Source: Strigamia acuminata (taxonomy: Eukaryota). From it: 64,000 nucleotides of DNA. Shown one piece after another: positions 20,981 through 63,340 of this stretch. Below the pieces are notes generated by a model. That model did not search any database, was not told the DNA's origin, and worked only from the letters and a program-made list of their open reading frames with translations. Position numbers and translations under genes: made by a program. The stretch covers positions 12,710,001-12,774,000 of the forward strand of contig OX442314.1 in the NCBI GenBank assembly GCA_949358305.1. Direction: 5' to 3'. Each line of letters begins with the position of its first letter. Positions within the stretch are counted from its first letter, which is position 1.

Positions 20981-20983
20981 GTC

Positions 20984-36089: not shown

Positions 36090-37009
36090 AGAGTTCACAT
36101 AGGTTGTAATGATAATGACTAAACTAAACTATTAAAAAAGTAAATAAAATTGATTTACATTGTCCATTCAATTAATTTAACATATTCATGCTGCATATAA
36201 TGTAAAAAAAATATATCTACATAACCTTAAGTAGCCCAATCATAATCAACAATTCCTGTGTAGACTAACTAATATAATTTAGGAAGGAGTTTGAAAGAAT
36301 CGTGATTAACCAAACTAAACAAAAGCCTCTACAAATGTATGTTGTACATACGTGTTAGTATGAACTAAAATTGCAGAATAAGTGTTCTTTATGCAATGTA
36401 ACAAATTTCAATATACCGGTAAATGTACTCATTTGCTGTTCAGATAGAAAGAAATTCTTACGTATAAGCTTAGGTGAACAAATACTTTCTGGTTGTTGCT
36501 GTTGTCCTTCCAATTTACAAACGAGATGCTATTATTTTACTCCAAAACTATTCAGTAGTTGTGTGCTTGCAATGAACTCAGTGAGCCCGCTAGTATTTAA
36601 GATTGAGCTTACTCCAAACATAATTAAGACATTTTAGCTAGACACCGCTTGATCTAAAAAAATCTTTTCTACTGGTGCCAGGGCCCTGCGTTCAGGTGTT
36701 ACTTTAGCCGTGTTGTGATACCAGATGGTCAGTGGAATTATTACAGTTCAGTGAATCTTTGCTAAAACGTACAGAGCCTACGCAATAGCAAGATTTGAAC
36801 AGAAATTACTGATTGGGCTTGGCAATAAATTTTTACTTTTATAATGTTAGGTAATATAATTGACAATAACTTATTTATAATATTTAATTCAGAACCAAAT
36901 CTTGAGTTGGATACAGATAAAAAAAACTGCTCAAGATCTTGATTCTTTATCATCCTTATTCTTGATTATCCTGATTATCTTGATTTTATTCATCTTCGCT
37001 CAGATCATC

Positions 37010-38005
37010 TGTGGTGACCCGACTGGGGTGGGGCACGAAGAGTTTCTCTCGTGGCCTACATACGGGTAAAGAAGGGGAGTCGCACGCGCGCCTCCCTTCC
37101 CTCAGAGCATTGACATCCAGTCAATGGACGGGCGTCTGCCCTGGGGGAGTGGGGGAGATTCGTCTTCTCCACTATTGGGTGGCTTTAGTCACCTGTCACC
37201 CCCCGCTTTGTGCAAAGGAATTCGCCTTGCACTGAGCGGGCAGAACCAACACAAAAATCAACCAAGATACACGTAAAAGCCAAACGTCCTAAAACGATCA
37301 AGCCTAAGTACAAAGACTTCAGGAGTGACCTAGGACAAGGGACTTTCAACGTGAGTACGATTGATTTGTGTTAACCTCCGCAGAGTAACCTGCGAAACAA
37401 GATTACCACACTATTTTAGCAAGCCAGCTAGAAATAGTAAACCTACTCCAATTTAGCGAGTTGTGCAGACAAACGGTCGCACAAGCCTAAATTGCAGTAA
37501 CCACGACGAGCGTTCCCGCCGCTGTGTGTATCGCCGGGAACCACCAAGCGTCCGCCGCTGTGTGATCGCCGGACACCTACAAAAAACCCTAAACCTAGAC
37601 AACAGACCAGAAGTAAGACCTTTCAGGCATTCACTCGCGCCCGACCAGCGTGAGCCCGAAGGACCGAACGAGAAACGTGAGACGAGGACGCCATTCATTG
37701 CCACGCCGGCCCAAGACGACACCACGTTGCCACGCGGACGCCATCTTGGATCCACAGCGACAAAGGACGACCTCGACCAGTTTCTCGCCAACTTCACACC
37801 CCTTTCCTTTTACCTTTTTATTCCCTTACATATTTTATTCCCTTTTAACTGTATATTCCCGTATAATAAATACATTTATTATATTTACCTTTTACATTGT
37901 CTTGCCGTGTTACATTATTTGGGTAACCGCTTGAGTAAAGCGGTATTGCGAGATCAGAGAGTGACTCATACCACGTATCAGCGACAGACCGAGTTGAGCG
38001 CGACA
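37010..38005 (+). repeat. 5' LTR of element B
   Basis: TGTGGTG...CGCGACA; direct repeat of 49530-50525. Confidence 0.95.
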
Positions 38006-38007
38006 CG

Positions 38008-38025
38008 TGGGGGCCTGTCCGGGAT
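38008..38025 (+). promoter_or_regulatory. Primer-binding site, tRNA-Pro-like
   Basis: TGGGGGCCTGTCCGGGAT, 2 nt after the LTR; 16/18 match to the canonical tRNA-Pro PBS TGGGGGCTCGTCCGGGAT. Confidence 0.85.
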
Positions 38026-38073
38026 CGATTTAAACGACTCGAATAGAACTTGAGATCATTTTCATACCCAAAA

Positions 38074-41000
38074 ATGGCAGACAATATCCGAGTAACGGAT
38101 TCCGACTCCGACGCGAACAAGAGAGCCGGCAGTCGTAAAGGCGCCGACTATCACTTGCGATCTGGAGGTCCCTTACCCAAAGCCTCAGCGCACGAAGCGA
38201 GGCAAAAACGGCGCAAGCCTAAACCCGATCGCAGAAGCGCATCAGAGGCATCGCACCCGTCTCGTTCCGAGACGAGGCAGCGATTGGACGAGACAGAGCG
38301 GGGTGAAGAGCAATCTCACTCCAAACTGCCGCGTTCTAACCGTGACGGCGAGACGAGCGGAAACGAGGTTTTATCCCGTAACCCATCGCCTCGTCTAACG
38401 CACGACACCGAGGTGGGCAGTCCGAAAGCGGCGTCTCCGATACAAAAGACGGCCTCAAACACGACAGCTAATTCGGCACTAAACACGCCAATTACGCAAA
38501 GCCGCCCAGCTTCGGTCAGGTCCGAAGGACACAAGTCCAATGCGTCAAAAACTGAGCGTGTTCCGAGCCAGCCTTACAGCGTCTCGGCCACATTGGTTGA
38601 CACGATGCAGTTGGCACAGGCAGAAGGTGTACGATACACTCTGCCAACGGGAAAAATAACTGTGTACGAAACATTACAAATCGTACGTGCAGCTTTAAGA
38701 GCGCACAGGTTATCCCCAGAAATCACCGTTGTTGAAGACGCATACGCTCAACAAATGGTAGACTCCGCTCAATTCGAAGCGGATGCCGAGAATGAGGCCC
38801 GACAAGCCATCCGCGAGAGAAAGCGGAAGCTGGCGGAAAGAGAAGCGCGAGCTCTCGAGTACGGCAAATCCCAGCGCGTTCCGACTACTCCAGAAGAAGT
38901 CGAAATAGTTGATCGAGCCTTACATGCACATCGTTATGCATTCCGTTCTCAACAAGAAGCTGAACAAGCTTTCATGACTAGGCTGCAACGAGACAAACCA
39001 AAATCCGTTCGCAAGCCAGAAGTTAGCTCGTCCGAATTGTCCGACGAGAGCGTAGAAGGCGACCCGAAGCGCACGCCGAAGGTCAGCCCCAAACCCGAGC
39101 GAAAAAAGGAAGTGCCAGTCACTCCACGCAAACGGGAAGTCTCGACCGAACAACGCGTTCGACCTCGCATGATGGCGTTAGACGATAACACTAACAACGC
39201 TATCAACCGATTAATAAATGCGAACAACGCGCGTCGTAACGAAGAACAGACTCACACGAGCCGACAACGCGACGACCCGCGGGGTAACGACTGGCAACAG
39301 CCGGTACCCATCCTCAAAGACGACGGACCTTCGAGAAAACCTTCCGAAGACCGCACATCGTCACGAGAGGAACGTCAACGCGAAAGAGGACAGCAACAGT
39401 ATCACTACGGAAACAGTGATTCGTCGTCGGATGAACTGGAGTCGAATGCACCCAGTCATCACGATTCGGAGAGAGGTTCCGGAGAAAGACGAAGGGAAAG
39501 AGAACGCGATGAACGCAGGGAAAGGGAACGTGACGACCGTCGTAGGGGCCGGAAAGAGTCAAACTCTTCACGGCGCAACCCGCCACGCCGCTCACCGTCT
39601 CCCGACCCCAGCTCCGACCCCTCGTCCAACGACGACAGACGAAATGATAAGTCAAGTAATCGCCGGAAGAGATCCAACTCTCCGCGCGATAGAGAGAAAC
39701 GACGTCGATCGGAAAATAGCGACCACCGACGGGAGGAGTTTCAGGACCTTCCCCGACAAAGCGCGTTTACCGATTCGACGGGTCGGCAGTATACGATGGG
39801 AGAGCTTGGAAGAGCCCTGCTTGGCTCGTTAAAAGCCGAAGGAATCGATCTGAGCAAACGAAATGATCGTAATCGTAACACTGGTGACCGCGTAAAGAAA
39901 AAATACGCTGTCTCCCGACGTGACACCATGAGTGTTACCGGGAATATTAGGTGGCAATTTTATATTCAGAACCGTTTCGACGGGTCATGGAAAGCGGGAG
40001 ATCGCTTCCTTGACGAAGTAATTCGGATTAAGACTGCCACTAAAGCCACCGTAGGAGACATGCTCACCCACGGTATTGTCGAGCTAATGACAGGCTCGGC
40101 ACGTGAGTGGTACCAAGGATTGAAAGGCGTCAATTGGGACGACTTTTTAATGAGATTCGACCTGCGCTACGGCGAGACACCCGAAGAGGTGAGCCGAAAG
40201 ATGCGAGGTCTTCGCCAGATGCCTGGTGAAACCATAATGGATTACGACATTCGCGCCAGATTGTTGTTCGAAAAGGCCCCGATGGAATTTCATGCCACGG
40301 GATTCAACCTTTTCTTTCTCGGCGGTTTGTCGGAATACTCGCAACGGGTGCTACTTGAAGAAAGGGCACCGACAGGAGGCAGCTACGAAGAAATGAGCGC
40401 CTTCCTGTTCGAGAACACGATAGATATCGAGAAGAGATATTATTCCGCTTTACCAGAAGCGGAGAAAGCAGCAACCGCTAAACGTCTCAAGTTGAGTGCG
40501 GAAAGATATGGGGCGACAGACAAAATCATGCGCCCTACTGAATATCTTAGCGGTATAATGGAGCTGGCAGAAGCTAGCGTTGGTTTACAAATAAAAAATA
40601 AACTGACATCCACGCTGCCTTCCAACCCATTGGCCGCCCCTAAAAAGGCACCGACAGCGTCAGCCATGCAAGCGACACTGGAGGAGGTCAAGGAGGGGGA
40701 GGAAGCCGAACAAAATGTCGGAAAATCAGACGAAAAAGAAGAAAAAGACGATTATTCGACGGACGAAGAAATACGAAGCTATCGCGATACCTTATCAACG
40801 GGTTGCGATGAGGAAGGACCGCTAGTACATCTCATCCATCGAGATAGAGCGGTAGAAGAATTTCGCGCCAGGTTAAAACCAAATGCCGGCCGAATTCCGA
40901 AGTATTTTCGAAAAAATTACACGCCACCGTCGAAAGTAGACCCTGAAAAAAAGAAATCGATTGAAGCCCCAAGAGACAAATCAAATATTCGTTGTTTTAA

Positions 41001-41154
41001 GTGTAACCAACCGGGTCACTATTCCAATGAGTGCCCAAGAACAGCGAAAGAAGACGCTAAGTTTGACGCGATAATGAAGCAGATGGCAGAGATTAAACTC
41101 GCCATGGCAAAAAACGAGTCAAAAAACGAGTCAGCGCAGGCGGCGAAGAAATAA
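38074..41154 (+). CDS. gag: Gag of element B (~1026 aa; long charged RS/RE-rich N-terminal region, capsid-like core, CCHC)
   Basis: LMTGSAREWY...WDDFLMRFDLRY...LRQMPGETIMDY core; CFKCNQPGHYSNEC knuckle; first ATG at 38074. Confidence 0.92.
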   Translation: MADNIRVTDSDSDANKRAGSRKGADYHLRSGGPLPKASAHEARQKRRKPKPDRRSASEASHPSRSETRQRLDETERGEEQSHSKLPRSNRDGETSGNEVLSRNPSPRLTHDTEVGSPKAASPIQKTASNTTANSALNTPITQSRPASVRSEGHKSNASKTERVPSQPYSVSATLVDTMQLAQAEGVRYTLPTGKITVYETLQIVRAALRAHRLSPEITVVEDAYAQQMVDSAQFEADAENEARQAIRERKRKLAEREARALEYGKSQRVPTTPEEVEIVDRALHAHRYAFRSQQEAEQAFMTRLQRDKPKSVRKPEVSSSELSDESVEGDPKRTPKVSPKPERKKEVPVTPRKREVSTEQRVRPRMMALDDNTNNAINRLINANNARRNEEQTHTSRQRDDPRGNDWQQPVPILKDDGPSRKPSEDRTSSREERQRERGQQQYHYGNSDSSSDELESNAPSHHDSERGSGERRRERERDERRERERDDRRRGRKESNSSRRNPPRRSPSPDPSSDPSSNDDRRNDKSSNRRKRSNSPRDREKRRRSENSDHRREEFQDLPRQSAFTDSTGRQYTMGELGRALLGSLKAEGIDLSKRNDRNRNTGDRVKKKYAVSRRDTMSVTGNIRWQFYIQNRFDGSWKAGDRFLDEVIRIKTATKATVGDMLTHGIVELMTGSAREWYQGLKGVNWDDFLMRFDLRYGETPEEVSRKMRGLRQMPGETIMDYDIRARLLFEKAPMEFHATGFNLFFLGGLSEYSQRVLLEERAPTGGSYEEMSAFLFENTIDIEKRYYSALPEAEKAATAKRLKLSAERYGATDKIMRPTEYLSGIMELAEASVGLQIKNKLTSTLPSNPLAAPKKAPTASAMQATLEEVKEGEEAEQNVGKSDEKEEKDDYSTDEEIRSYRDTLSTGCDEEGPLVHLIHRDRAVEEFRARLKPNAGRIPKYFRKNYTPPSKVDPEKKKSIEAPRDKSNIRCFKCNQPGHYSNECPRTAKEDAKFDAIMKQMAEIKLAMAKNESKNESAQAAKK

Positions 41155-41172
41155 CTTCTCGACCGTCTGCGC
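41109..41172 (+). promoter_or_regulatory. -1 frameshift signal of element B with two tandem slippery heptamers
   Basis: A AAA AAC at 41109-41115 and 41121-41127, both in gag frame; hairpin GCGCAGGCGG (41134-41143) / CCGTCTGCGC (41163-41172); -1 frame open into pol. Confidence 0.85.
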
Positions 41173-41177
41173 CATTC

Positions 41178-44100
41178 ATGAAGAAGAAGGGGTTTAACAA
41201 AGGGTTCGATAAACCGCCACCAGTCAAAGAAATGGGTAGTGACATAGCTAACGCCCAGATCCAAGACAGGGCCAACAACGCTTTGCAGGTAATTACCGCA
41301 AACGCTGAGGCTGAGGCGGAAGAACCAAACCTACTGCTTGAAGAATTACCTCAAGTAGTCGAAGACACAGAAGAATTTCGTGTTTTCATGTGCAACGTGG
41401 CGGTCGAATATACCAGCCGCCTATGTATGCTGCCCATGACAATAGAACGCGAAAAAATTATGGGACTGCTAGACTCGGGAGCAGATCGCTCGTTCGTTTC
41501 CGAAGACATAGTAGCATCATTGGGTCTCACCGATAAGATAAAAGGCGTTAATAAAAATGTACGTCTAAAAACCGCCAACGGAATGGCGCGTCCAAAAGGA
41601 GTTATATTATTGACCATGGAGTGGCTCGGAGGGGTAGAACAGCACCCTTTCCTGGTCCTGCCCACGTGCGACAGAATTTTTCTGTTGGGCTTAGACCTCA
41701 TGGCGTCAATGGAAATACAACCAAATCCAATAACGAAATCTTGGAATTATATCAGAAATGATAGAGAAAGACCCGCAATTGTCGTGCCACCAGCTCTTAT
41801 CAAAGAAGCGGCCGACAAGACACAGTGGGAGAAAGGCCTAAAGAAATTCGTTCAAGACTACAATTTTAAAGCATTCGTAGCAGAATTGCAACGGGACAAT
41901 GTAGTGGAAACGCTTGTCGCCGACGCCGCTTTAGAATTAAACGAAGCGGCAGCCCTACGAAGGGTCCTACTTAAATATGAGGGGATCCTGTCGAAAAAAC
42001 CGGGCCGAACGAATAGGGCTATTCACGAGATTAAATTGACGGATAATAAACCTATACGAGTTGCGTATAAGGGAATGAATCCGCAAAAACGTGAAATAGT
42101 GCAAAAAATGTGCCAAGAAATGCTAGACAGTGGCATTGTCTCCGAGGCCCAGGGAGAATACGCGACGCGAGTTGTGCTCGTGATGCGCCCGGGCTCGGAC
42201 CCACGCCTATGCATTGATTACCGCCCATTAAACGCGGTGACAGAGATAGATCCCATACAGATGCCGTCTATCGAATCCATTTTGAGAGAGCTTAGCCCCT
42301 TTTCTTGGGTTACGACGATGGATCTGTCGAAGGGATACTGGCAAGTTGAGATGAGGCCAGAGGATAAGCTAAAAACAGCATTTTACTCGCCAATTGGACG
42401 GTTGATGTTCAACGTCATGCCGTTTGGTTTAGTGAATGCTCCCAGTACCTTTCAGAGACTAATCGAAAGCGTATTGGGTGATATCCTGCATCAGTTCGTG
42501 TGGGCATACCTAGATGACATAGTTATTGCCTCTAAAACATTCGAAGAGCACATTGAGCACATCGACCAAGTGCTCACCCGGCTGGCGAAAGCTGGGTTAC
42601 ACGTTCATCCGGGCAAGAGCAAGTTCTGCCGAAAGGAGCTTGCCTTCCTGGGTTATCGCATTGGAGTCAACGGTTTAGCTATTGGCCCCGAAAAAATCGA
42701 TGCGATTAATCGTTTCCCACCACCCGAGGACGTTAAAGGTGTCCAACGGTTTATGGGAATGATAAACTTCTTCGGCAGGTTGCTACCGGGTCTAGCTGAA
42801 GTGGCAGCCCCAGTTACCGACCTCCTGAAGAATGAAAACGAATTTGTATGGTCAAATGAGTGCACCATCGCATTTAATGCGATAAAGAGGATGCTGACGG
42901 AAGTCGGCGTAATGCCTCTACCCGACTTAAACCGGCCGTTCATATTACATACGGACGCCAGCAGAGTTGGGTTAGGAGCGGCGTTGCTCCAAACACACGT
43001 GCGCGACGGAGTCGAACAAGACCTGCCGTGCATGTTTATAAGTCGCAAACTCCAAGGCGCTGAAAAAAATTACAACGCCACAGAGTTGGAGTGTTTGGCA
43101 GTTGTGTGGGCTATAAGGAAATTCAGAGATTATCTCGAATATACCAAATTTGTAGTCCACACAGATCATCAAGCGTTACAATGGCTGATGAAATTAAAGG
43201 AGCCAGCCGGTCGACTAGCCAGATGGCAGTTAGAACTGATGGCATGTGACTTGACCATTCAATACAAGCCCGGCAAATATAACGTCGTGGCTGACGCTCT
43301 ATCAAGGGCACCAGTGTCAGATCCTATCGACGCTGACGATGATGGCGAGGATGATTCCCGCATCATTTACTGCCCGACGAGTTGTCACCGTTGGGATTTA
43401 AGGAAGATAAATGAAATTCCCACCGCGTCTCCAGCAGATGTAAAATTCTGTGGATTCTGGACGCGGTTATACCAACCAGCTGCTGACAATCACCCAAATG
43501 CAAAGAAGGAATTTAAGCTAGAGCGGAGAATAAATGACCCGCTTCTAAGCGCCTTCCACGCTCATGTCGGCAGGCAAATGCGAAGCAATCCCCCGACAAG
43601 GGAGGAAATAATTGTGCAACAAAAATTAGACAAAAAATGTCAGGACAGAGCTAGATTCGTACTGACAGGAAAATATCCGCCCAACTTAACCAGAAGGCAG
43701 AAGCGTCGTTATGCACACGAATCCATAGATTACCTATTGGATGACGGCCTTTTGGTGAAACATCACCCAAATCACCAAGATGACTTGAGTGAATCGGACA
43801 CCGCAGTAAAGGTAGTAATACCTGCTTCCTTAATCGGTCGCGTGCTGTGGTTGTTACACGGGCACCCGCTTGCAAGCCATGCGGGAGTAAGCAGAACACT
43901 CTATCGTGCTACACAGCTTTTTCACTGGACAGGGATGAAAAAAGATATTGCTCTTTTTGTCCACCAATGTCAGCGATGTCAAGCGTGCAAGCCGAGGAGT
44001 AAATCACCATTCGAAACTATTTTCTTAGGGCCTTACGCGCCTTTTGATTGTTTAAGTGTCGATGTGATGGGCCCAAAACCCGTTACGGGAAATAAAAATG

Positions 44101-45248
44101 CGTACATTATCGTTATAATGGACGTGGCGACTCGTTGGCCCGAGTTGTACGCCGTCGCTAGACCTTCAGCAGAAAAAATCGTTGAATGTATCTACGACGT
44201 AGCGTTACGTTACGGATTTCCACGTAAAATGATATCCGACAACGGACCCCAATTTATCTCGAAAATTTGGGGTAAGTTTTGTGAGAAATTCGGGATTGTG
44301 GCGTCACATACTTCGACCTACAATCCCAGAACAAATCCCGTTGAGCGACTCAACAGGGACATTAAATATGCACTAAGTATATTCACTGACATCCACAATA
44401 GGTGGGATGAATACTTGAGGGAGATCGCGTTCAGCATACGAACAACAGTCTCGAGGACGAGAGATTTTTCTCCGGCCTACCTCAACTTCGCCCGGGAGCT
44501 ACGAGTGCCTTGGGACCCACGAGTGGCAGAGTCAGTAAATGTCGTGGACCCTGAGAAACTACATGAGTACGTGTATAAATTGGAGCAAACCATCTCCAAC
44601 ACGTACAAGCACATGATGGCGCACATTTTTAATATGCGCGACCGCATTTTACAAGATAAAAGCGGTAGAAAATTTGTGAATTTCGAGATCAATGATTTGG
44701 TGTGGAAAGACACACACATCCTCTCAAATGCAGCGAGAGGAATCACCGCCAGCTTGGCCGACAAGAGAGATGGTCCGTATGTGATCATCGGCAAGCATGG
44801 CGGTAACGCGTATAAACTACGTAAGCTCGAGGACAATACCGAGCATAAGTCGATCCAGGTACGAGAGTTAACTCCGTACATTCCGGAATTCCCGCAAGAA
44901 ATGTGGGCAAAAGGCCAAGTCAAGTCTAAAACTGACGGCCAAATCGTCGATATGTTCGCTGGCGAGTCGGAAAAAGCACCGCCAAGTGACAACGAGGAGT
45001 ATTTCGACGCCCCTTCACCACCGGTAAACGAGATAGTTGAATCCGTTCCGGATCCAATTTTGGTCGGGGGGGAAACAGGAGAAACTCCTGAAACAAACAC
45101 AAAAAACACGGATAAAAAAGAAAACAGTAATGAGGAGGTACAGACACAAAAAACAACAAAAAATATCGTACCTGTCTCGACTCATCACCTGCGGCCCCGT
45201 GGAAGTAATCCGTTTATAAAAGACGGAAAGGTCGTAGGAAAGGAGTAG
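41178..45248 (+). CDS. pol: Pol polyprotein of element B (PR, RT, RNase H, IN)
   Basis: GLLDSGAD, YLDD, LHTDAS, HGHPLASH..CQRC, VDVMGP / SDNGPQF / VERLNR; visibly related to pol of element A. Confidence 0.96.
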   Translation: MKKKGFNKGFDKPPPVKEMGSDIANAQIQDRANNALQVITANAEAEAEEPNLLLEELPQVVEDTEEFRVFMCNVAVEYTSRLCMLPMTIEREKIMGLLDSGADRSFVSEDIVASLGLTDKIKGVNKNVRLKTANGMARPKGVILLTMEWLGGVEQHPFLVLPTCDRIFLLGLDLMASMEIQPNPITKSWNYIRNDRERPAIVVPPALIKEAADKTQWEKGLKKFVQDYNFKAFVAELQRDNVVETLVADAALELNEAAALRRVLLKYEGILSKKPGRTNRAIHEIKLTDNKPIRVAYKGMNPQKREIVQKMCQEMLDSGIVSEAQGEYATRVVLVMRPGSDPRLCIDYRPLNAVTEIDPIQMPSIESILRELSPFSWVTTMDLSKGYWQVEMRPEDKLKTAFYSPIGRLMFNVMPFGLVNAPSTFQRLIESVLGDILHQFVWAYLDDIVIASKTFEEHIEHIDQVLTRLAKAGLHVHPGKSKFCRKELAFLGYRIGVNGLAIGPEKIDAINRFPPPEDVKGVQRFMGMINFFGRLLPGLAEVAAPVTDLLKNENEFVWSNECTIAFNAIKRMLTEVGVMPLPDLNRPFILHTDASRVGLGAALLQTHVRDGVEQDLPCMFISRKLQGAEKNYNATELECLAVVWAIRKFRDYLEYTKFVVHTDHQALQWLMKLKEPAGRLARWQLELMACDLTIQYKPGKYNVVADALSRAPVSDPIDADDDGEDDSRIIYCPTSCHRWDLRKINEIPTASPADVKFCGFWTRLYQPAADNHPNAKKEFKLERRINDPLLSAFHAHVGRQMRSNPPTREEIIVQQKLDKKCQDRARFVLTGKYPPNLTRRQKRRYAHESIDYLLDDGLLVKHHPNHQDDLSESDTAVKVVIPASLIGRVLWLLHGHPLASHAGVSRTLYRATQLFHWTGMKKDIALFVHQCQRCQACKPRSKSPFETIFLGPYAPFDCLSVDVMGPKPVTGNKNAYIIVIMDVATRWPELYAVARPSAEKIVECIYDVALRYGFPRKMISDNGPQFISKIWGKFCEKFGIVASHTSTYNPRTNPVERLNRDIKYALSIFTDIHNRWDEYLREIAFSIRTTVSRTRDFSPAYLNFARELRVPWDPRVAESVNVVDPEKLHEYVYKLEQTISNTYKHMMAHIFNMRDRILQDKSGRKFVNFEINDLVWKDTHILSNAARGITASLADKRDGPYVIIGKHGGNAYKLRKLEDNTEHKSIQVRELTPYIPEFPQEMWAKGQVKSKTDGQIVDMFAGESEKAPPSDNEEYFDAPSPPVNEIVESVPDPILVGGETGETPETNTKNTDKKENSNEEVQTQKTTKNIVPVSTHHLRPRGSNPFIKDGKVVGKE

Positions 45249-46622
45249 AAAACGTTACGAGTCGATGGCGACGCTGAAAAACAAAAAAATTGACCGATCG
45301 ACAGCGCTAGCCATCAAAATCCGAGACTCTGAAAATTTCGCTAAGTCCAACAAAGCGGATATCGGTCGAATTCGCGTCACGAGATGGCGTGGAAACGCGG
45401 GACCCGTAGCAAAATTATCGGCACGGGTCGGATACCGCGTGCAAAAGACCCCGTAGCAGCGATCGCGCACGGGCGTAGAAACAAAGGAGCCCCGTAGCGT
45501 AACATGCGCACGGGCTGTTGCGCACAGTCATAAGCACCTGGTTCTGGAGTAAAATTACCCAGAACCCACCACGATTGCCTCGTTTTCACCCGGACTTCCG
45601 CTAAAATCAGCTGATCGTCGTCCGCACGTGATACACAGCGAGTGCATTTTTAACCAAGTTTTTGATCCATTTTACGAGAAGTTTTCAAGTTTTTTAATCG
45701 TGGTCTGACTGAACGCGCAATCCTCACGATGGATGAGGAAGGAGGGGACGAGGAAATGCTTGAAATACAGCATCATGACGAGAATTGGGACCCGGACATA
45801 AACGTAGTTCCACCCGATCAGGTAGTAGTCGGCATCGCCGCACGAGATTTAGCTCCGTGCGGTCGAATTAAAGATACACTTGACTAATACTTGACATGAA
45901 CGCTCTGCGTTCGAAATCGTGTATAATTATTATACTAATATCCACGATCGCGAGAGCGATTGTATTTTCTCCTATTATTTGTCTTCAAGGACGCGATAGC
46001 AGACAAACTGTCGCCTCGCTCCTTGAAGATGACTCACGACAATTGACACGAACGAGACAAAGGAAACGAGCTTTCTTTTTATATTCCAGAAATGGGAATA
46101 ATTTATTGGATGGATTTTGAAAGAATTTATAGAACGTTGTTTCTATTTTTATTTGCTATTTTATTTGCGAATTTTTTCCCGATGACACTAATTTATTATA
46201 GATTCGTTTTTTAACTCGACTTTAACTCCGAATTTTTGGAGTTATTATTAGACAAATTTATTTCTTTACAAGTTAATTCACGACAAGAACATTTGTTTAC
46301 ATGTTCTAAAATTGTTATTGGAGATTTTCACGAACGATTTCGCGAATTTATTGGTTTAAATACAAATTTACAGTTTAATTTTAAATTAAGCAATCCGAAG
46401 AAAAATTTCCGGATTAATACGCTCGATTCCGTCTCGTGGTTATCATTGGACGTGAACCAGATGTGCCAAGAAGACTCTTTTCTTCCTGACAAGGACGAAT
46501 CAATGAACAGGAATAGGACTCGACGAGCGGTCGCACGTTTCAGCGACGTTCCTCGAGCCCACCCCCTATTTATCTCCGTGTTATTGGCGATTTCATTAAT
46601 TATTTTGTTTCCATCATTGCAG

Positions 46623-49490
46623 ATGGAGCTCCGAGACACATGGGGAGCGCTCAGCCCCGCATGCATAGTGCGAGCGGGCATATATCGAGGCGTACTGCCC
46701 GATTTTCTGCGCCGCTGCTTTGGCGAAGATGCGAAGCCATACCGCCTGCGCGTATTATTTTCGCGCGCCCTCGCCAAGCGTTGGGTTAACGATTGTACAC
46801 TCCTGGACGCGTTCCCGGAGTCGGTGCGAAACGTCGTCGCTGCAGAGCTCGCTCGCATCGATGACCCGAAGTCACCAATCTTCCACCCGGCCCTGTCGAG
46901 CCAATACTCCGGCAGGCCGGCGGAGGAGCATGTGTTGTTCGCGTGGCAAGCGGCCGAGACCGAGGAGGCCCGCGAAGAAGTGTATCAACACTACCGCCAG
47001 CAGCTAATCGACACTGCGCCGGCGGTTGCAGAGCGGATTTTGCAAGACGACGGAATGAGCACCGCCGATATACATCTGTGGTGCGAGCAGATTCGGCAGG
47101 GAGAAGTTACGCCACAGTGGCGACCGAGAATGGGGATTCTCACGTCACAAGCTGAAATGTGGCAACTCCACTATTTGGGAATTCTCGGCCCCAAATATAA
47201 TTTCCCAAGGAAGCGCAAGCGCTCCAAGGGAACCGGGGGCAGCGAATCGCGCTCCCCGGGACGGTCGAAGAAACAGTGCGTCGAACAGCACTCGACCGTC
47301 AACGATGGAGCGGGAACGTCAGCGCAGCCACCGCGCGACCCCGCGAATTACACCAGACCAAGGGTGTTCGTCAACCGTCAGATGAAAGACGGTAAAGAGA
47401 CTCGAGAAGTCTGGATTTCGGGTGACGAAGAGCGAGTCTCTCGTCCCCGTGTCGGCAGACATCCGCTAACTCATCGTGAGCAGCGGAAACGAGACCGCAA
47501 AGAGCGGTATTTCGCTCGCTGCGAGGCGCGAGGAATTCCCCTTCCCGAACACGCTCTCAAAGCAATCGAAGCGAAGGAAGCGAGAGAGGCACGATCGAAG
47601 TCGAGTGGCCGATCTTCCGGGGAGCGTCGCGTCCTAGCGCCAGACACGCGGGACCTTCGCGAGATCATCACCCAGATGAAACGCAAGAAATTGTCTCGTT
47701 TCGACCCCGCGATGCAGTTCGCTCGCAAGATGGGCGTCGTCGAGCATGGTACCGTGATTCCACACGAAGTGGCACGGTGGTTAAGCGAATATGTCAATTC
47801 GCGACCGCGTGTAGAAAACGCGCCTACGGCCGTCGTTCCACCGACGAGTACTGTAAGCCAGCTCCCGGCACTCCAAGTCACGCCGACTGGAGTGCAAGCG
47901 ACGCTGCCACCGCCAACACAACAGTCTTTGACGTTGCTGTTGCCGACGCAGTCATCAACGTCGCAACCGTTGCCAGCACAGCAGTCCCTGACGCTGCCGC
48001 CGCCGACACAGCCGCTGCCGCCGCCGACGCAGCCCCCGCCGCCGCCGCCGCCGATGCCGGGTTCGAGCACTACGCCGAACTTGGCCGTCGACGACTCGGT
48101 GATGTTGCCCGTTCACCAGAGCATTGCGCGGGAATGCCATAACGCCCGATTCGGAGAATATTACCCGAGCAAGGCAAGACACGACCGCACCGCGATGTGG
48201 TATGAACAGCGTGACGAAAACGCACGGCTGGCTCGAGAAGCAGCCAATCCATCGATCGAAGAGCTCTTGGCCTTCGCATTTGTGATGGAGGACCCGAGGG
48301 CCGCCGCCGCTGCTCTGCAGGGCGCCGACGTCACTCAGCGCCATTTCATCGAGTGGGGGATTTCGATGATGCGGCACCACTCGCGCGCGTTCGCTGCAGA
48401 TCCTGATCGCAGCAACCCTGTAAATCGGCGCAGTCTACAGCTGGCTTTGACGAAAATCATGGTCCAGTTATTGACCCCCTCGCTCTTTGGGGTCGGACGA
48501 CAGGCGATGGCCTGTTGGTCCGTAGTAGACAGAGAGGGTGTGCAGATACCTCGCGCACTCGTTGGAGAATGGAGCGCCATTCTCCCCAACCCGGCGATGA
48601 CTCGCTTCGAGCTGACCCGGGACGTGGTGAACCCCGAATGGGAGGGGTATAAGTTGCGGAGCATGGCCTTCCGCCACGCCGTTACCACGTGGGAGCCAAC
48701 ACCGTCAGCGCAGTCACACGCAATGATGGTCACGAGTGAAGAGCCGATGGAGAGCGACGCCGCCTCTTCGACTGCTTCACGTGGAGCCCCAACTCCACCT
48801 CCGCCGCCGCCACCGATGCCACCAGCGGCGACGCCACAGACACCCGTCCTATCAAATGCGGCGGGTAAGCCTAGACGCCTGCTATGCCGGACGCCGCCAA
48901 CGATGTCCGCCGCTCGCCAGAGCCTGACGCCTCCCGCAGCCCAAGAAGCGCAGGAAGAGACTGTCCAGCAGGCAGTGGTTTCGAAGAGCGCCAAGCCAGC
49001 GAAAGCGGCGAAGCCTCCGACAAACTACTATGAGAAGTTGTGTGACGAGTTCTCTCAGCTGTCGATGACGACGGCGACGCGCAAATTCATCCTCGCGCAG
49101 AGAGACAAGGGGAAATCGGTATTCGTTTGGCTACACAACCAGGTGCGCCAGACCACCGATTTGATCCTCCATCAGCGTTTGCTGAGGGCCCACCGTGCGC
49201 CTCGAACGGCCGCGGAGGCGAACGCGATCCGGCACACCAATTCCGGGTTTTCGGCGTTCATTCCGCGGGTTTGGCTGCATGAGAGGAGACGTGCCCCGTA
49301 CGAGCCAGCCGGCGGCCACGCATTGTGCTTCATTTCCGAGCACGAGGACCCCCGCGACCAGTCTTCAGCCTTGGTTGGAGATCTGGTTTTGCCGCCCGGC
49401 GTTGTGCCGCCCGGCGCTGAGCCGCCCGTCCCTGGAGTGAGTTTCGCCCAGGCGATGGATCCAGCGTCGGGTCCCAGCAAGAAGGATTGA
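46623..49490 (+). CDS. ORF3 of element B: ~955-aa protein of unknown function (helical blocks, NLS-like basic motifs, poly-Pro linkers); not env-like. Start uncertain (frame open from 46236; upstream ATG at 46461)
   Basis: Long intact GC-rich ORF between pol and the PPT; ATG at 46623 follows TTTTGTTTCCATCATTGCAG; PRKRKRSK; PPPPPPP tracts. Confidence 0.82.
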   Translation: MELRDTWGALSPACIVRAGIYRGVLPDFLRRCFGEDAKPYRLRVLFSRALAKRWVNDCTLLDAFPESVRNVVAAELARIDDPKSPIFHPALSSQYSGRPAEEHVLFAWQAAETEEAREEVYQHYRQQLIDTAPAVAERILQDDGMSTADIHLWCEQIRQGEVTPQWRPRMGILTSQAEMWQLHYLGILGPKYNFPRKRKRSKGTGGSESRSPGRSKKQCVEQHSTVNDGAGTSAQPPRDPANYTRPRVFVNRQMKDGKETREVWISGDEERVSRPRVGRHPLTHREQRKRDRKERYFARCEARGIPLPEHALKAIEAKEAREARSKSSGRSSGERRVLAPDTRDLREIITQMKRKKLSRFDPAMQFARKMGVVEHGTVIPHEVARWLSEYVNSRPRVENAPTAVVPPTSTVSQLPALQVTPTGVQATLPPPTQQSLTLLLPTQSSTSQPLPAQQSLTLPPPTQPLPPPTQPPPPPPPMPGSSTTPNLAVDDSVMLPVHQSIARECHNARFGEYYPSKARHDRTAMWYEQRDENARLAREAANPSIEELLAFAFVMEDPRAAAAALQGADVTQRHFIEWGISMMRHHSRAFAADPDRSNPVNRRSLQLALTKIMVQLLTPSLFGVGRQAMACWSVVDREGVQIPRALVGEWSAILPNPAMTRFELTRDVVNPEWEGYKLRSMAFRHAVTTWEPTPSAQSHAMMVTSEEPMESDAASSTASRGAPTPPPPPPPMPPAATPQTPVLSNAAGKPRRLLCRTPPTMSAARQSLTPPAAQEAQEETVQQAVVSKSAKPAKAAKPPTNYYEKLCDEFSQLSMTTATRKFILAQRDKGKSVFVWLHNQVRQTTDLILHQRLLRAHRAPRTAAEANAIRHTNSGFSAFIPRVWLHERRRAPYEPAGGHALCFISEHEDPRDQSSALVGDLVLPPGVVPPGAEPPVPGVSFAQAMDPASGPSKKD

Positions 49491-49529
49491 TCGCTCCGAA
49501 CACCGGCGGTCAGAGCTGGGAGGGGGACG

Positions 49530-50525
49530 TGTGGTGACCCGACTGGGGTGGGGCACGAAGAGTTTCTCTCGTGGCCTACATACGGGTAAAGAAGGGGAGT
49601 CGCACGCGCGCCTCCCTTCCCTCAGAGCATTGACATCCAGTCAATGGACGGGCGTCTGCCCTGGGGGAGTGGGGGAGATTCGTCTTCTCCACTATTGGGT
49701 GGCTTTAGTCACCTGTCACCCCCCGCTTTGTGCAAAGGAATTCGCCTTGCACTGAGCGGGCAGAACCAACACAAAAATCAACCAAGATACACGTAAAAGC
49801 CAAACGTCCTAAAACGATCAAGCCTAAGTACAAAGACTTCAGGAGTGACCTAGGACAAGGGACTTTCAACGTGAGTACGATTGATTTGTGTTAACCTCCG
49901 CAGAGTAACCTGCGAAACAAGATTACCACACTATTTTAGCAAGCCAGCTAGAAATAGTAAACCTACTCCAATTTAGCGAGTTGTGCAGACAAACGGTCGC
50001 ACAAGCCTAAATTGCAGTAACCACGACGAGCGTTCCCGCCGCTGTGTGTATCGCCGGGAACCACCAAGCGTCCGCCGCTGTGTGATCGCCGGACACCTAC
50101 AAAAAACCCTAAACCTAGACAACAGACCAGAAGTAAGACCTTTCAGGCATTCACTCGCGCCCGACCAGCGTGAGCCCGAAGGACCGAACGAGAAACGTGA
50201 GACGAGGACGCCATTCATTGCCACGCCGGCCCAAGACGACACCACGTTGCCACGCGGACGCCATCTTGGATCCACAGCGACAAAGGACGACCTCGACCAG
50301 TTTCTCGCCAACTTCACACCCCTTTCCTTTTACCTTTTTATTCCCTTACATATTTTATTCCCTTTTAACTGTATATTCCCGTATAATAAATACATTTATT
50401 ATATTTACCTTTTACATTGTCTTGCCGTGTTACATTATTTGGGTAACCGCTTGAGTAAAGCGGTATTGCGAGATCAGAGAGTGACTCATACCACGTATCA
50501 GCGACAGACCGAGTTGAGCGCGACA
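49530..50525 (+). repeat. 3' LTR of element B
   Basis: Direct repeat of 37010-38005, preceded by the PPT. Confidence 0.95.
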
Positions 50526-51022
50526 CATCTTCATCTAGATCATCTACATGCAGATCATCTTCATCTAGATCATCTTCGCTCAGATCAAGATTTAGATGAA
50601 AAAAATCAAGATCAAAATCTTGATTCAGATCCATAGCTTGATTCAGATCAAGATCAAGATCCAACTTCTGACTTTGGACGTAACTCGTAATCACATCACA
50701 AGCTAGTTTGTCAATTTTTTTACAGTCGTAAATATGCAAATGATTCATTGGATTGTTCATTGCTAGCAATCTTAGAACTGTTGCAGAACTAATCCAATGA
50801 CAATTCTTCATGTTCGCCTTCTGGAGATTTTGAAGTAAATTCAATTTGATAAGCTCCGTGATCAAGTTGTCGGAAAAAGATTGACAACCCCAAACGAACA
50901 GGCTCTCTAAATTAACGGAATTTACAAATAACATTTGCAAAAGTTGTTCGCTTATTAAAACTAGTTGATCCATCGGTTGTTCACGAATTTTTAGTGTACG
51001 TAGCTTTCTGAATGGCTGATGA
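50526..51022 (-). pseudogene. 3' part of a BC-box/LRR paralogue; last codons lie at 36986-37009, beyond element B
   Basis: HQPFRKLRTLKIRE...LNLLQNL...acidic tail. Removing element B and one CATC gives ...DLDEDDLSEDE-stop. The 5' half is missing. Confidence 0.85.
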
Positions 51023-51906
51023 CTTTCAACTCCTAAAACAAGATTTTCATCGCAGCAAAATGCTAAACCCATATTCTCTCGAAAGTGTAAGTTTAGATGA
51101 GTGTACAGATGACGATTTCAGCGTAGTCCCACAAATGTTTCCGAATTTACGTAAGATTGATATTACGATAATTGAAATTGAAGACGAAAACCGTTTTGAT
51201 GTTATAGTTGCATCTATAATATGCAAAACGATGGAAAGACTGACTAGCTTAAAACTGTACAAGATCGCTACAGTCGATATTACGCAAATCGACCGTTTCT
51301 GCCCAATGTTGGAAAGTTTAACATTGTTTGCTTGTGCAATCAGTATTGGACCATCTAATTCTGATAATTCTGATAATGTAAGAGAAGTGACGTTCAGAAA
51401 TCTGCATTCACTTACGATCCACAAAGGACCGCATGAACAACTAAACGAAGGACTGGATGATTGGAATGAACTACTAATCGAAGGACCGGATGAACAACTA
51501 AACCAAGGACTGAATGAACAACTAAACCAAGGACTGAATGTACTACTAAACGTAGGACCAGATGAACAACTAAACACAATAACCGAACAACATTTTCGAA
51601 TGTTATTGTTAAAGTCAATTAATTTAAAAACACTATCGTTTTATAATTGTCAACGTTTTTCCGATAGTTTGATCACTGAGCTCATCGAATTGAATTTACT
51701 GCTAAATCTCAGAGAGTTTTGTATTACCAACTGTCACTCGATTAGTTCTGCAATAGTTTTAAAATTGCTAGCAATGAAAAAGTCCACTAAATAATTTGTA
51801 TATTCGTAAGTGCCAAAATATTGACCAACCTGCTTGTGATATAATTACTGATTATGTTCGAAGTGAGAATTTGGATCTTAATCTTGATCTTCGACGTCAC
51901 CATTAA
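51023..51906 (+). pseudogene. 5'-truncated BC-box/LRR paralogue with internal repeats and a late frameshift
   Basis: Begins at FQLLKQDF; internal GPDEQLNQ/GLNEQLNQ 24-bp repeats. One extra A in the run at ~51777-51781 shifts frame, and the family C-terminus continues to ~51906. The extra A could be a sequencing error. Confidence 0.82.
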
Positions 51907-52080
51907 ATTACTGCTCTTTCGTAAGTTATTTATCCTTTAAACAATTTCATTAAAACTGAAGGATTAAATTATTTCCATAACTTCGAGTCACTAAGGTCAA
52001 ACAACAATTCCTGTTCATAACTCAGATTAAGAAAAAATTATTAAATTATTAAAAATTATTCTTAAAATAAATGAAATATA

Positions 52081-52443
52081 CAGGGTGGTCAGAAACCTCC
52101 TCCTGCTTCATGATCTCTCCGCCATAGCAGACGTCCTCCGAAATGCTGATCATCCTGCTCATGCTATTACGGAATACTACCACTCTGACGTGAATACCCG
52201 GACGTCTCGGCGCCATAAGTTCGAGATCACGGTAAAGCGAACGACCTACCTACGCAAGACATTCCCTCATAGATGCACGACACTCTGGAATGATCTTCTC
52301 ATCGACCTCCGCACTACGATCTTTGACTGTGCTGCCTCAAAGTGTCGCTTCCACTGCTGCCACCTTCATAAGCATATAAGCAAACACCTATTAAACCAAC
52401 AAGCTCTTTCATAAACCTGTAACCTACTCCACTGGAGTGTCTC

Positions 52444-52475
<32 letters not shown>

Positions 52476-53225
52476 AGTCTGGTTCTATGTAAATAATTCC
52501 CAAACTGTTCTAGATGTTGATTCAGCAAAATTATTGTAAGGGTAGTATGTTGGGGGAAATCCAATTATGACATCCAATTTGACCTCTGAGGTCATCTTCA
52601 AGGTTATCCATATTGTAACTCGAGAACCGTGACAGATAAAGCAAAAAGATGAATTAGAAAGTTGTAGAGCATCATCCAATTGGTCTGGAACCATTCTTAA
52701 AAAAATTATTTCTTACTAAAAGGTTTTGAGAAAAAAGGTCTGAAACATTAGTCTACTCAGCATTGTAACTCAGCTTTGTAACCTAAAACTATTGAGGCAA
52801 CCAAGCTAATCCTCAATTAGGACACTTTATTTGGTATACTTGTAAGTGGAAGAGAGGAAACACAAAAGAAAAGAAATAATTTATTTTGGAAATACATTCC
52901 AACATGATTGTTTTAGGTTACAAAGCTGAGTAGACTAACATTTCAAACCTTTTTTTCTCAAAACTTTTCGGTAAGAGATAATTTTTTTAAGAACAGTTCT
53001 AGACTAATTAGGTGGTCCTCTACAACTTTCTAATTCACTTTTTCTCTCTATCTGTCACGGTTCTCGAGTTACAATATGGATGACCTTGAAAATGACCTCT
53101 GAGGTCAAGTTAGATGTCATAATTGGATTTCCCCCGACATACTACTCTTACAATAAGTTTGCTGAATCAACATCTAGAACAGTTTGGGAATTATTTACGT
53201 AGAACCAGACTTTCTGACCACCCTG
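52081..53225. mobile_element. Tc1/mariner-type foldback MITE with long inverted arms, interrupted by a LINE fragment
   Basis: TA|CAGGGTGGTCAGAAA ... TTTCTGACCACCCTG|TA; arms ~52477-52790 and ~52910-53210 are imperfect reverse complements. Confidence 0.85.
52096..52476 (+). mobile_element. 5'-truncated 3' fragment of the same LINE family as 20984-23814
   Basis: Near-identical to ~23427-23810 including the (TAAA)n tail; inserted within the MITE left TIR. Confidence 0.92.
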
Positions 53226-53369
53226 TATTTTTAGTTTCATTACTTTTTTTGCTTTAACCCAAAGTAGTCGCAGCTCTTATTCAAAAAGGGCATCCTGAGC
53301 TGCGGCTCTTATTACAATTGTTTATCATATTTTGATTAAAATTTCACTTTTTTTCCGTCGAAATTTCAC

Positions 53370-54048
53370 TTTTAGACTTCTAAACCTGATGTTTAGAAAG
53401 TCTAATGAAACGGTCATGTCCGCCTGTCTATCTGTCCATCCGTCGTCATCGATTCCGCAAAAACTATAGCAGCTAGAGCCAAACGGACAACTGCAATAAA
53501 CTCAGCATACCTATATTAGTATCCTAAGGTCTTTTCGTACTTCTCCGACCTCCGGTTGAATTAAAAAACCGGTTTTAGTACACTTTTAGCCGTCTATTCC
53601 GTGAAAATTACAGAAATGACGTCATATGACGTCTTTTCCGTAATTTTGTTGTTCCGGTGTATTTTGAACGCAAAAATCGGGACATTTCGGCCGCCATTGG
53701 GTAATAGAATGCGGCCGACTGTATAAAAATGTTCCGGCATATACAGTATAATTGCGAATTTAGGGATTTCATGTCGTAAATTATTATTTTTTTAATTTCA
53801 AATTAATTTCTTTATTTTTTGTGTGATACCAGACCTGACTTTAAAGAGTGCGCCAAGCTGTTACTTTTGAATTAGCTTGACGAAGACGATTGACCTTGAC
53901 GCCATTTCGAAAATATAACAAAATCAACAAATTTCCGAAAAATTGATTACAATTTAATTTTTTTTTTGGTGTTTTATTTAGGGGCAGAGGGACAGGGTTT
54001 AGAAGTCTAATATGTAATGCTTCCCTGCATTACAGATGTTTACTTGTT
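53370..54048 (+). mobile_element. DINE-1/HINE-like non-autonomous Helentron-associated element
   Basis: 5' subTIR TTAGACTTCTAAAC with adjacent inverted copy, GTCY-type microsatellite (~53418-53445), 3' subTIR GTTTAGAAGTCTAA, stem-loop TGTAATGC-TTCCCT-GCATTACA, end CTTGTT in T-rich context. Confidence 0.75.
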
Positions 54049-54362
54049 TTCCATTGATATTTCCATTTTTTTTATTGAAGTTTCACTGTCATTAAATTTT
54101 TATTTTTCTGAGTAAAATTTTAATTTTTTCCATTGAAATTTCACTTTATTTTTAAATTTTCTATCTAAATAACTATCAATATCGACGAATGTTACATTAA
54201 CAGTTTCCTGTTCGGCTACTATTCGAGGGCGGCTCTTATTTCAAACCACCTCTCTGAGGCGCGGCTACTATTCGAGGGCGACTCTTAATCGAGAACATAT
54301 GGTATTTGTATTTTTAGATCTTCATCTAAAAGTAACTGAATAATTTAATTCCAACCAATAAC

Positions 54363-54450
54363 AAATTATGTTCAAAGTCAGAATATGGATCTTGTCCTTA
54401 AACAGAACGTGACCTTACAGAAGACCTTGAAGAAGACGACGCAGGTTAAA
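54363..54450 (+). pseudogene. Tiny C-terminal remnant of a BC-box/LRR paralogue
   Basis: NYVQSQNMDLVL...EDLEEDD-like sequence resembling the end of paralogue 4. Confidence 0.6.
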
Positions 54451-54674
54451 AAATCCACGTAAATCACAATTCAAAAAATAAAATTGATGTGCATCGTTCA
54501 TTAAATTACTTTTTCTTATCTATTTATTCTCTATATTATCTCAATACAACCGAAGGAATAAATTATTTCCATAACATCCGAGTCATTCAAACCTAATCAA
54601 CTAACGATTTCCCCAGTTTGACTCCTTTTTTCAGCAAGTGTAAATATTACACCTTACACGTGTCACGATACACC

Positions 54675-61061: not shown

Positions 61062-61251
61062 ACACCTTTGAGTGTAAACTTACTCATAAAGGCGTAAATT
61101 TGAAAGAATGTAAGTTTTTTTGTCCACAACTGTACTACAACGTTTGGCAAACGTTTATCAATTTTCACGTCTACTGGTTCTATTTATATAAGCGATGGTT
61201 CAGTTTCAATTTCACTAAACTGTAGCTGTTCTACTGACCTGATATCACGAC

Positions 61252-62574: not shown

Positions 62575-62859
62575 ATTACCTCTTAAAGCAATTACCGGTA
62601 CTATAATATCCAAAAGAATAAATAAAGTAAATTTATCTCGTTTAGATCAATTAAGCAAACTTTAAGAATTTATTTCATTTTTCACAAGTGTTACTAATTC
62701 TGCATTGTTTTATCACATCTTCTTTCAAACAATTGAACAGGGGTCCATAAAATCTCTCGATAATTTGAAAACTTTATTAAAATTACTAAAAAATAATCAG
62801 ATATTTTTGAAACTTGTACATAACATAACATAACGTAACGTATTTACCGCTTTCATCTG

Positions 62860-63200: not shown

Positions 63201-63340
63201 AATTCGAACACTCCAATCAAATTTTTTAAATTTATTACGGTACATTACAACGTTTGCTAAACGTTACAAATTGTCACGTATATACGGTAGTTTGCCTTCA
63301 TTTAAACTATGGTTCACTGAGCTGTAACCATTCCCACGAC

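What the first reader, a model, noticed from the sequence alone, without database searches (positions are those of the whole stretch)
46623..49490. Gypsy element B carries a different ~955-aa non-env ORF3 in the same slot
Seen: a very young element (LTRs apparently identical, clean TSD) has a ~2.9-kb intact ORF ending 28 bp before the PPT. It contains helical-looking blocks separated by poly-Pro linkers and NLS-like motifs (PRKRKRSK, MKRKK). I see no alignable similarity to ORF3 of element A, although the two pol proteins are clearly related. Inference: this lineage has a swappable or fast-evolving accessory-gene slot downstream of pol, analogous to accessory genes of complex retroviruses. Caveat: an upstream in-frame ATG (46461) would add a basic-then-hydrophobic segment (LFISVLLAISLIILFPSL) that could be a membrane anchor or just the translated polypyrimidine tract.
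Basis: partly seen in the sequence, partly recalled or inferred. Interest (0 to 1): 0.82.

Follow-up and report, generated by a model that had tools for sequence, protein, structure and literature searches.

The report
Orphan third gene in Gypsy retrotransposon
A young, multi-copy Gypsy jumping gene carries, where retroviruses have their envelope gene, a 955-amino-acid gene that is kept by selection and matched no protein in our searches; it is likely made from a spliced RNA and is predicted to be a nuclear helper protein, most likely one that gets the element's full-length RNA out of the nucleus.

Summary
Observation confirmed. Element B (37010-50525) has identical 996-bp LTRs, a 4-bp TSD and an empty-site allele in two public runs. 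ORF3 (46623-49490, 955 aa) has no membrane segment and no homolog among 1.84 billion representatives. It is a real gene: 27 of 37 listed differences between copies are synonymous (10.9 expected), none is a stop. The upstream 'membrane' extension is frame-shifted in other copies, and the ATG sits directly behind the best acceptor-like AG, exactly as in element A, so ORF3 is likely the last exon of a spliced RNA. Three NLS-like clusters, an Arg-rich helix and folded blocks on flexible linkers resemble CERV, the RNA-export factor of C. elegans Cer1; I put that function at about 0.35. 'Swappable slot' is not shown: the Gag proteins of A and B also align only over capsid and knuckle, and the two ORF3s share start, end and codon bias. 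Non-env ORF3s are already described (Cer1, bdelloid rotifers, plants), and this scan noted orphan Gypsy ORF3s in four other genomes. New protein family, known kind of gene.

The parts
37006..37009 (+). target-site duplication CATC, left copy (right copy 50526-50529)
   Evidence: joint skipping 13520 bases = 13516 element + 4 TSD in runs X1 and X2
37010..38005 (+). 5' LTR, 996 bp, TG...CA; AATAAA at 37865; best donor-like GT sites at 37351 and 37613
38008..38025 (+). primer binding site; resembles tRNA-Pro primer sites (recalled, not tested)
38074..41154 (+). gag, 1026 aa, long charged N-terminal part, capsid-like domain and CCHC knuckle
   Evidence: Pfam Retrotrans_gag E 2.2e-5, zf-CCHC E 4.4e-6
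41097..45248 (+). pol frame: protease, RT, RNase H, integrase; overlaps the end of gag
45249..46622 (+). 1374-base pol-ORF3 spacer, AT-rich from 46100 to 46400; likely part of the intron of the ORF3 message
   Evidence: 15 ATGs lie in it
45729..45887 (+). small acidic ORF (52 aa); the best donor-like GT of the spacer (45822) would join its first 31 codons in frame to ORF3 (hypothetical exon)
   Evidence: 3 synonymous and 2 non-synonymous of 5 listed differences, too few to judge
46461..46622 (+). in-frame upstream extension with hydrophobic stretch; not conserved, most likely the translated branch point and pyrimidine tract
   Evidence: one-base losses at 46478 and 46562 in all three runs, at 46589 in one; GC 0.37 over 46215-46622 against 0.61 in ORF3
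46596..46622 (+). branch-point-like TTAAT, pyrimidine tract and TGCAG acceptor directly before the ATG
   Evidence: rank 1 of 80 AG sites by an ad hoc score
46623..49490 (+). ORF3, 955 aa, pI 9.6, orphan, under purifying selection
46623..47192 (+). N-terminal helical block (aa 1-190)
   Evidence: low confidence; diverged copies align here
47205..47228 (+). NLS-like PRKRKRSK (aa 195-202)
47355..47807 (+). basic middle block (aa 245-395): beta-hairpin, Arg-rich helix aa 284-304 (7 R and 2 K in 20 residues; best-predicted part), KRKK at aa 353
47820..48104 (+). Pro/Gln/Ser/Thr linker with PPPPPPPMP (aa 471-479)
48105..48722 (+). central helical block (aa 495-700); 4 of 4 listed differences synonymous
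   Evidence: 82%-identical copies align here
48720..49004 (+). second Pro-rich linker with PPPPPPPMP (aa 725-733)
49005..49367 (+). C-terminal block (aa 795-915)
49518..49527 (+). polypurine tract
49530..50525 (+). 3' LTR, identical to the 5' LTR

Best explanation
ORF3 is a family-wide accessory gene of an active Ty3/Gypsy retrotransposon, kept by purifying selection, likely expressed from a spliced RNA and predicted to encode a soluble nuclear protein that most likely licenses export of the element's unspliced genomic RNA, as CERV does for Cer1. Steps: (1) shown: intact ORF in many copies, selected at the protein level, no membrane segment; (2) inferred: RNA from the LTR is spliced to the acceptor at 46622, so the ATG at 46623, or an in-frame upstream exon, starts the protein; (3) inferred: NLS-like clusters take it into the nucleus; (4) inferred by analogy: an element with a strong acceptor in its genomic RNA must get the unspliced RNA out, and the Arg-rich helix (aa 284-304) would bind that RNA while the helical blocks and Pro-rich linkers recruit host export or chromatin factors.
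For: Selection: 27 synonymous, 10 non-synonymous, 0 stop among the 37 ORF3 differences listed; 10.9 synonymous expected from the same base changes; omega about 0.16; the other five frames give 3 to 19 synonymous. Multi-copy: single ORF3 contigs have depth 5143 and 5790 against 127 for a flank contig in X2, and 1835-2494 against 35 in X3 (rough). Mobile: identical LTRs and an empty site in X1 and X2. Splice start: TGCAG directly before the ATG in both B and A; only 4 of 1029 plus-strand ATGs of the window have it; top acceptor-like site of 80 in B and tied top of 59 in A; 15 ATGs in the spacer argue against scanning from pol. Soluble and basic: highest 19-residue hydropathy 1.39, pI 9.6, four K-[KR]-x-[KR] matches in three clusters, P 0.002 in 2000 shuffles. 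Precedent: CERV is a non-env ORF between pol and 3' LTR, spliced, with a KRKK NLS, three folded domains on flexible linkers, no homolog outside its host genus, required for gRNA export (PMC10309623).
Against: Splicing, nuclear location and function are inferred from sequence and analogy; none was observed. The acceptor score was written by me after seeing the site. No sequence similarity to CERV was found and B's ORF3 has no CxxC, whereas CERV's essential loop is Cys-rich. No canonical leucine-rich export signal (seven matches to a relaxed pattern are uninformative). Pro/Gln/Ser/Thr tracts and basic clusters fit a transcriptional regulator equally well. Drosophila errantiviruses splice env without any described third export protein in the passages read, so a spliced ORF3 does not demand one. 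The 37 differences are the best-supported 40 of 251 rows (3 lay outside the ORF), which favours old, common differences. No donor downstream of the primer site and upstream of gag was found, so the first exon is unknown.
Confidence: 0.35

Rival explanations
1. Same gene and splicing, but the protein is a nuclear trans-activator or anti-silencing factor that raises transcription from the LTR or shields the element from host silencing.
For: NLS-like clusters, basic helix and long Pro/Gln/Ser/Thr tracts; one PxVxL-type motif at aa 881 (an HP1-binding motif as recalled). Nuclear accessory proteins are reported for Drosophila 412 (sORF1, PMC11952523) and maize Grande (PMC7264820). Fast divergence between families fits conflict with the host.
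Against: One PxVxL arises in 38% of shuffles. No DNA-binding or chromatin domain in Pfam. Omega about 0.16 within the family shows constraint, not an arms race at that depth.
Confidence: 0.25
2. A cytoplasmic or particle-associated factor whose poly-Pro tracts recruit profilin or SH3/WW proteins to move particles inside or between cells, replacing Env functionally.
For: Two tracts with the same PPPPPPPMP motif; sits in the env position; env-free cell-to-cell spread linked to actin is reported for MDG1-group elements (PMC11952523).
Against: No membrane segment, no late-domain motifs PPxY, P[TS]AP or YPxL, no WH2 or formin family hit at E up to 10 on four blocks; three NLS-like clusters.
Confidence: 0.12
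3. A host or viral gene captured by the family, kept for its own (possibly enzymatic) activity, as GDSL and DEDDy ORF3s were in bdelloid elements.
For: GC 0.61 against 0.47 in pol and 0.35 in flanking host DNA; codon use unlike own pol. Near-single-copy contigs at about 82% identity exist in all three runs.
Against: No homolog among 1.84 billion representatives, nor in Pfam, PHROGs or PDB sequences. A's unrelated ORF3 shows the same GC bias, so the bias may belong to the slot, not to a donor. The low-depth contigs vary from about 0.3 to 1 times flank depth among runs, as polymorphic elements would.
Confidence: 0.13
4. Translation starts at ATG 46461 and gives a membrane-anchored, Env-like or FAST-like protein of 1009 aa.
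For: Open frame, basic then hydrophobic segment (hydropathy 2.46) and one furin-like motif in the extension of this copy.
Against: One-base losses at 46478 and 46562 in all three runs and further gaps in one X3 contig; 10 of 12 listed indel rows lie in 243 bases upstream (about four independent events) against one self-compensating pair in 2868 bases of ORF3; diverged copies stop aligning at 46590. The hydrophobic stretch is the pyrimidine tract of the acceptor.
Confidence: 0.04

Closest known systems
CERV of C. elegans Cer1 (PMC10309623; seen: abstract, passages, sections 9 and 15)
   Same: Large non-env ORF between pol and 3' LTR of an animal Gypsy element; last exon of a spliced message (inferred here); KRKK-type NLS; folded domains on flexible linkers; no homologs outside the lineage.
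   Different: CERV is 517 aa with upstream exons from gag, a Cys-rich loop and a G-protein-like domain; B's ORF3 is 955 aa, has its own ATG at the acceptor, no CxxC and two poly-Pro tracts; no sequence similarity found; function untested here.
Variable non-env ORF3s of bdelloid rotifer Vesta/Juno/TelKA elements (PMC5408684; seen: parts 1-2 of 5 of the text)
   Same: Family-specific, sense ORF3 that differs between related elements.
   Different: Those are recognisable GDSL esterases, DEDDy exonucleases, coiled-coil or membrane proteins; this one matches none in Pfam.
Additional ORFs of plant LTR retrotransposons, e.g. Grande GENE23 (PMC7264820; seen: parts 1-2 of 3)
   Same: Orphan ORF between pol and 3' LTR, present in most copies, some nuclear.
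   Different: The orphan plant cases reviewed are mostly antisense with their own promoter; this one is sense with an acceptor.
env-F of insect errantiviruses (PMC12992720; seen: passages)
   Same: Third ORF in the same place, from a spliced sub-genomic RNA.
   Different: No transmembrane segment, furin site or fusion-protein family hit.
sORF1 and sORF2 of Drosophila MDG1-group elements (PMC11952523; seen: passages, section 7)
   Same: Non-env accessory ORFs under purifying selection; sORF1 is nuclear.
   Different: About 110 and 70 aa, mostly upstream of gag, unspliced; sORF2 is a membrane protein.

Membership tests
Ty3/Gypsy LTR retrotransposon (Metaviridae) | LTRs with TG...CA, PBS, PPT, TSD | tested here: met
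Ty3/Gypsy LTR retrotransposon (Metaviridae) | gag, then pol in the order protease-RT-RNase H-integrase | tested here: met
Named Gypsy clade (Osvaldo, errantivirus, other) | placement among reference RT sequences | not tested
   trees hold no reference elements; the only named neighbours in the 16-row group are tick proteins
Env (env-F or other fusion glycoprotein) | transmembrane anchor | tested here: not met
   highest 19-residue hydropathy 1.39
Env (env-F or other fusion glycoprotein) | furin site, several glycosylation sites, Env family profile | tested here: not met
   no R-x-[KR]-R, one sequon; no Pfam family at E up to 0.1
Env (env-F or other fusion glycoprotein) | fusion-protein fold | tested here: inconclusive
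   models too poor (pLDDT 41 and 53)
sORF2/FAST-like fusogen | short (63-107 aa) with one membrane segment | tested here: not met
   955 aa, no membrane segment; sizes from PMC11952523
CERV-like export factor | sense non-env ORF between pol and 3' LTR with a K-[KR]-x-[KR] NLS | tested here: met
CERV-like export factor | made from a spliced mRNA | tested here: inconclusive
   acceptor signal strong in two elements; no junction seen
CERV-like export factor | Cys-rich loop; sequence homology to CERV | tested here: not met
   no CxxC; no hit (whether CERV is in those libraries was not checked)
CERV-like export factor | required for export of unspliced genomic RNA | not testable with these tools
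   needs knock-down and RNA localisation
Rotifer-type enzymatic ORF3 (GDSL, DEDDy) | Pfam-detectable GDSL or DEDDy domain | tested here: not met
Swappable ORF3 slot | different ORF3 types on closely related pol backbones | tested here: inconclusive
   only A and B have known 3' ends; RT-RNase H 45% identical; group A+B+P0003 has support 92/97; Gag nearly as divergent as ORF3 outside capsid and knuckle

The most novel reading that the evidence does not exclude
A lineage of arthropod-type Gypsy elements with a fixed expression cassette (spacer, branch point, CAG directly on an ATG) into which unrelated nuclear regulators have been recruited more than once, so that elements A and B are 'complex' retrotransposons with independently invented Rev-like or anti-silencing proteins of new fold, the 955-aa ORF3 being a second, non-nematode example of a retrotransposon-encoded RNA-export factor.
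Probability: 0.2. Interest if true: 0.75.

Novelty: new member of a known kind. Interest (0 to 1): 0.47.

Why it matters
How LTR retrotransposons that splice part of their RNA still export the unspliced genome, and how they evade silencing, is open for most animal elements; among the papers my searches returned, CERV was the one tested export factor of this kind. A young family with tens of copies and a large selected orphan ORF3 gives a tractable second case. It also warns annotators that an ORF after pol is not an env by default. If ORF3 proves to be neither export factor nor regulator, it is still a new protein family under constraint.

Tried and rejected
Homolog searches for ORF3 were blank: 7990 candidates of the 5.8-billion set at near length, all 1.84 billion representatives, Pfam whole and on four blocks (one hit at E 0.21), PHROGs (best E 0.01 on one block, unknown function), PDB sequences (best E 0.3), ESM Atlas on the whole protein (no usable hit, recognition low; the part search did not complete). 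A's ORF3 core also blank among 2269 candidates. Folding without an alignment gave pLDDT 41 (whole) and 53 (aa 1-195); Foldseek on viral models gave TM under 0.1 for the whole model and no match at E 0.001 for the N-terminal model; VIA-align gave no Z of 5 or more among 48161 chains: no verdict on fold. Internal repeats among the blocks: none. No RNA holder listed; the four runs laid are contigs and show no joint at the acceptor among the joints displayed (24 joints not shown). No genome held. Related loci: none in viral contigs; 8 metagenome loci at 28-40% identity, none with an ORF3 match. A structured response element in the spacer: 3 of 17 windows at z -2.5 or lower, against 0 of 9 and 5 of 17 in two control stretches, inconclusive. 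A shared basic-helix motif between A and B ORF3s was not above chance. PxVxL not above chance. No complex prediction was sent, as no binding is claimed. Paper searches answered; none returned a description of this element or protein. No supplements were read; element lists in them might hold relatives.

Full report
The element. Element B spans 37010-50525. Its LTRs are 996 bp, identical, end TG and CA, and are flanked by CATC on both sides. [quoted passage not shown] In runs X1 and X2 a contig joins 37005 to 50526, a skip of 13520 bases, which is the element plus one TSD, at a depth close to that of the flank (274 against 280; 92 against 127). The insertion is therefore polymorphic and recent. 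The host is not given. The named proteins nearest in the RT-RNase H tree are from ticks, which suggests an arthropod; this is an inference.

The ORF is real. 46623-49490 encodes 955 aa; shuffles reach at most 401 codons. Contigs of three runs cover it end to end (30 of 30 bins each). Single ORF3 contigs have depths of 5143 and 5790 in X2 (flank 127) and 1835 to 2494 in X3 (flank 35), near the gag contigs of the same runs (6843; 2821 and 5249), so tens of copies carry it; contig depth is only a rough guide. Of the 40 best-supported differences shown, out of 251, 37 lie in the ORF (3 outside were dropped): 27 synonymous, 10 non-synonymous, none a stop, where 10.9 synonymous were expected; omega is about 0.16. 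Four predicted blocks hold 4 non-synonymous and 16 synonymous, the linkers 6 and 11. Copies at 82 to 88% identity align over the blocks and break off in the linkers.

Where it starts. The ATG at 46623 follows a branch-point-like TTAAT, a pyrimidine tract and TGCAG with no base between. By a simple score of my own this AG ranks 1 of 80 in the spacer; element A's ORF3 has the same arrangement at 7795/7796 and ties for first of 59. Only 4 of 1029 plus-strand ATGs in the window follow TGCAG. The upstream extension from 46461 is not kept: one-base losses at 46478 and 46562 occur in all three runs, while the ORF shows only one self-compensating pair in one contig; 12 of 14 indel rows were displayed and 7 of the 10 upstream rows come from one contig. 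Diverged contigs of 538 and 548 bases align from 46784 back to 46590 and no further; I read their direction from the empty-site contig. The hydrophobic segment is thus most likely the translated pyrimidine tract. The donor is unknown: there is no GT between primer site and gag ATG among the top sites; candidates lie in the LTR (37351, 37613), in gag in phase 0, or at 45822, which would add 31 acidic residues in frame.

What the protein looks like. No membrane segment (hydropathy at most 1.39), no furin motif, one sequon; pI 9.6; three clusters of NLS-like motifs; an Arg-rich helix at aa 284-304 that is the best-predicted part of a poor model; two Pro-rich linkers, each with PPPPPPPMP. No sequence homolog was found.

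A against B. A, B and one unnamed protein form a group with support 97 among 122 rows (FastTree) and 92/97 among 32 rows chosen by me from those (IQ-TREE), but they are distant: pol 35%, RT-RNase H 45%. The ORF3s do not align, differ in length (955, 506), pI (9.6, 5.9) and cysteines (0 and 5 CxxC). That fits replacement. But the Gag proteins align only over 128 capsid residues at 23% and the knuckle, and the ORF3s share the acceptor-ATG start, the final KKD and a GC-rich codon bias (r 0.67). That fits one ancestral gene that diverged past recognition, or one expression regime acting on two genes. The data do not decide.

Mechanism. The closest tested case is CERV of C. elegans Cer1 (PMC10309623; abstract, passages, sections 9 and 15 read): a non-env ORF between pol and 3' LTR that forms the last exon of a spliced message, carries a KRKK NLS, has folded domains on flexible linkers, no outside homologs, and is required to export unspliced genomic RNA. 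B's ORF3 matches this layout but not its sequence or Cys loop, so it is not filed as a CERV; it may work like one. I give about 0.95 to a functional accessory gene, 0.8 to splicing at 46622, 0.7 to a nuclear role, and 0.35 to RNA export as that role; a trans-activator or anti-silencing factor is close behind at 0.25.

Novelty. Variable non-env ORF3s were described in bdelloid rotifers (PMC5408684, parts 1-2 of 5 read), orphan extra ORFs in plants (PMC7264820, parts 1-2 of 3), nuclear sORF1 in Drosophila (PMC11952523, passages and section 7). PMC12992720 (passages) gave the env-F features; PMC13524379 (three passages) led to the rotifer paper. Seven paper searches returned nothing on this element. 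Four earlier notes of this scan report orphan Gypsy ORF3s in other genomes (unchecked); none resembles this protein by shared words. The kind of gene is known; this protein family, its size and the shared acceptor-on-ATG design in two distant relatives are new. Interest 0.47.

Noticed in passing
window 7796-9316: Element A's ORF3 (506 aa) is also an orphan, starts directly behind TGCAG, has five CxxC motifs at aa 231-293 and basic stretches, and is followed by about 740 bases before the presumed LTR at about 10058; its Cys cluster is more CERV-like than anything in B.
   Followed up: partly
window 49479-49490 and 9305-9316: Both ORF3s end in Lys-Lys-Asp, with 11 of the last 12 bases identical, though nothing else aligns.
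   Followed up: partly
window 45729-45887: Small acidic ORF in the spacer with a phase-0 donor-like site at 45822 that could be a first exon of ORF3.
   Followed up: partly
window 38074-41154: Gag of element B is very long (1026 aa) with an Arg/Glu/Ser-rich stretch before the capsid domain.
   Followed up: no
window 17700-36100 and 50600-64000: Cluster of at least eight related, apparently intron-free ORFs or fragments of about 430-510 aa with weak LRR hits, 68-85% alike; element B sits inside the cluster.
   Followed up: no
window 54663-61061 (minus strand): A third LTR element with a single 1689-aa gag-pol frame and 277-base repeats 98% alike; long branch in the tree; 'Mag-like' is a recalled label, not tested.
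   Followed up: no
window 20974-23745 and 24207-25988: A non-LTR endonuclease-RT frame and a copia-type RT fragment with 159-base flanking repeats.
   Followed up: no
window 30000-50525: CpG observed/expected is 1.0 to 1.7 in both elements and in host DNA: no sign of CpG depletion.
   Followed up: no
window 45925-46074: One spacer window folds with z -4.3 against dinucleotide shuffles, but a control stretch reached similar values.
   Followed up: partly
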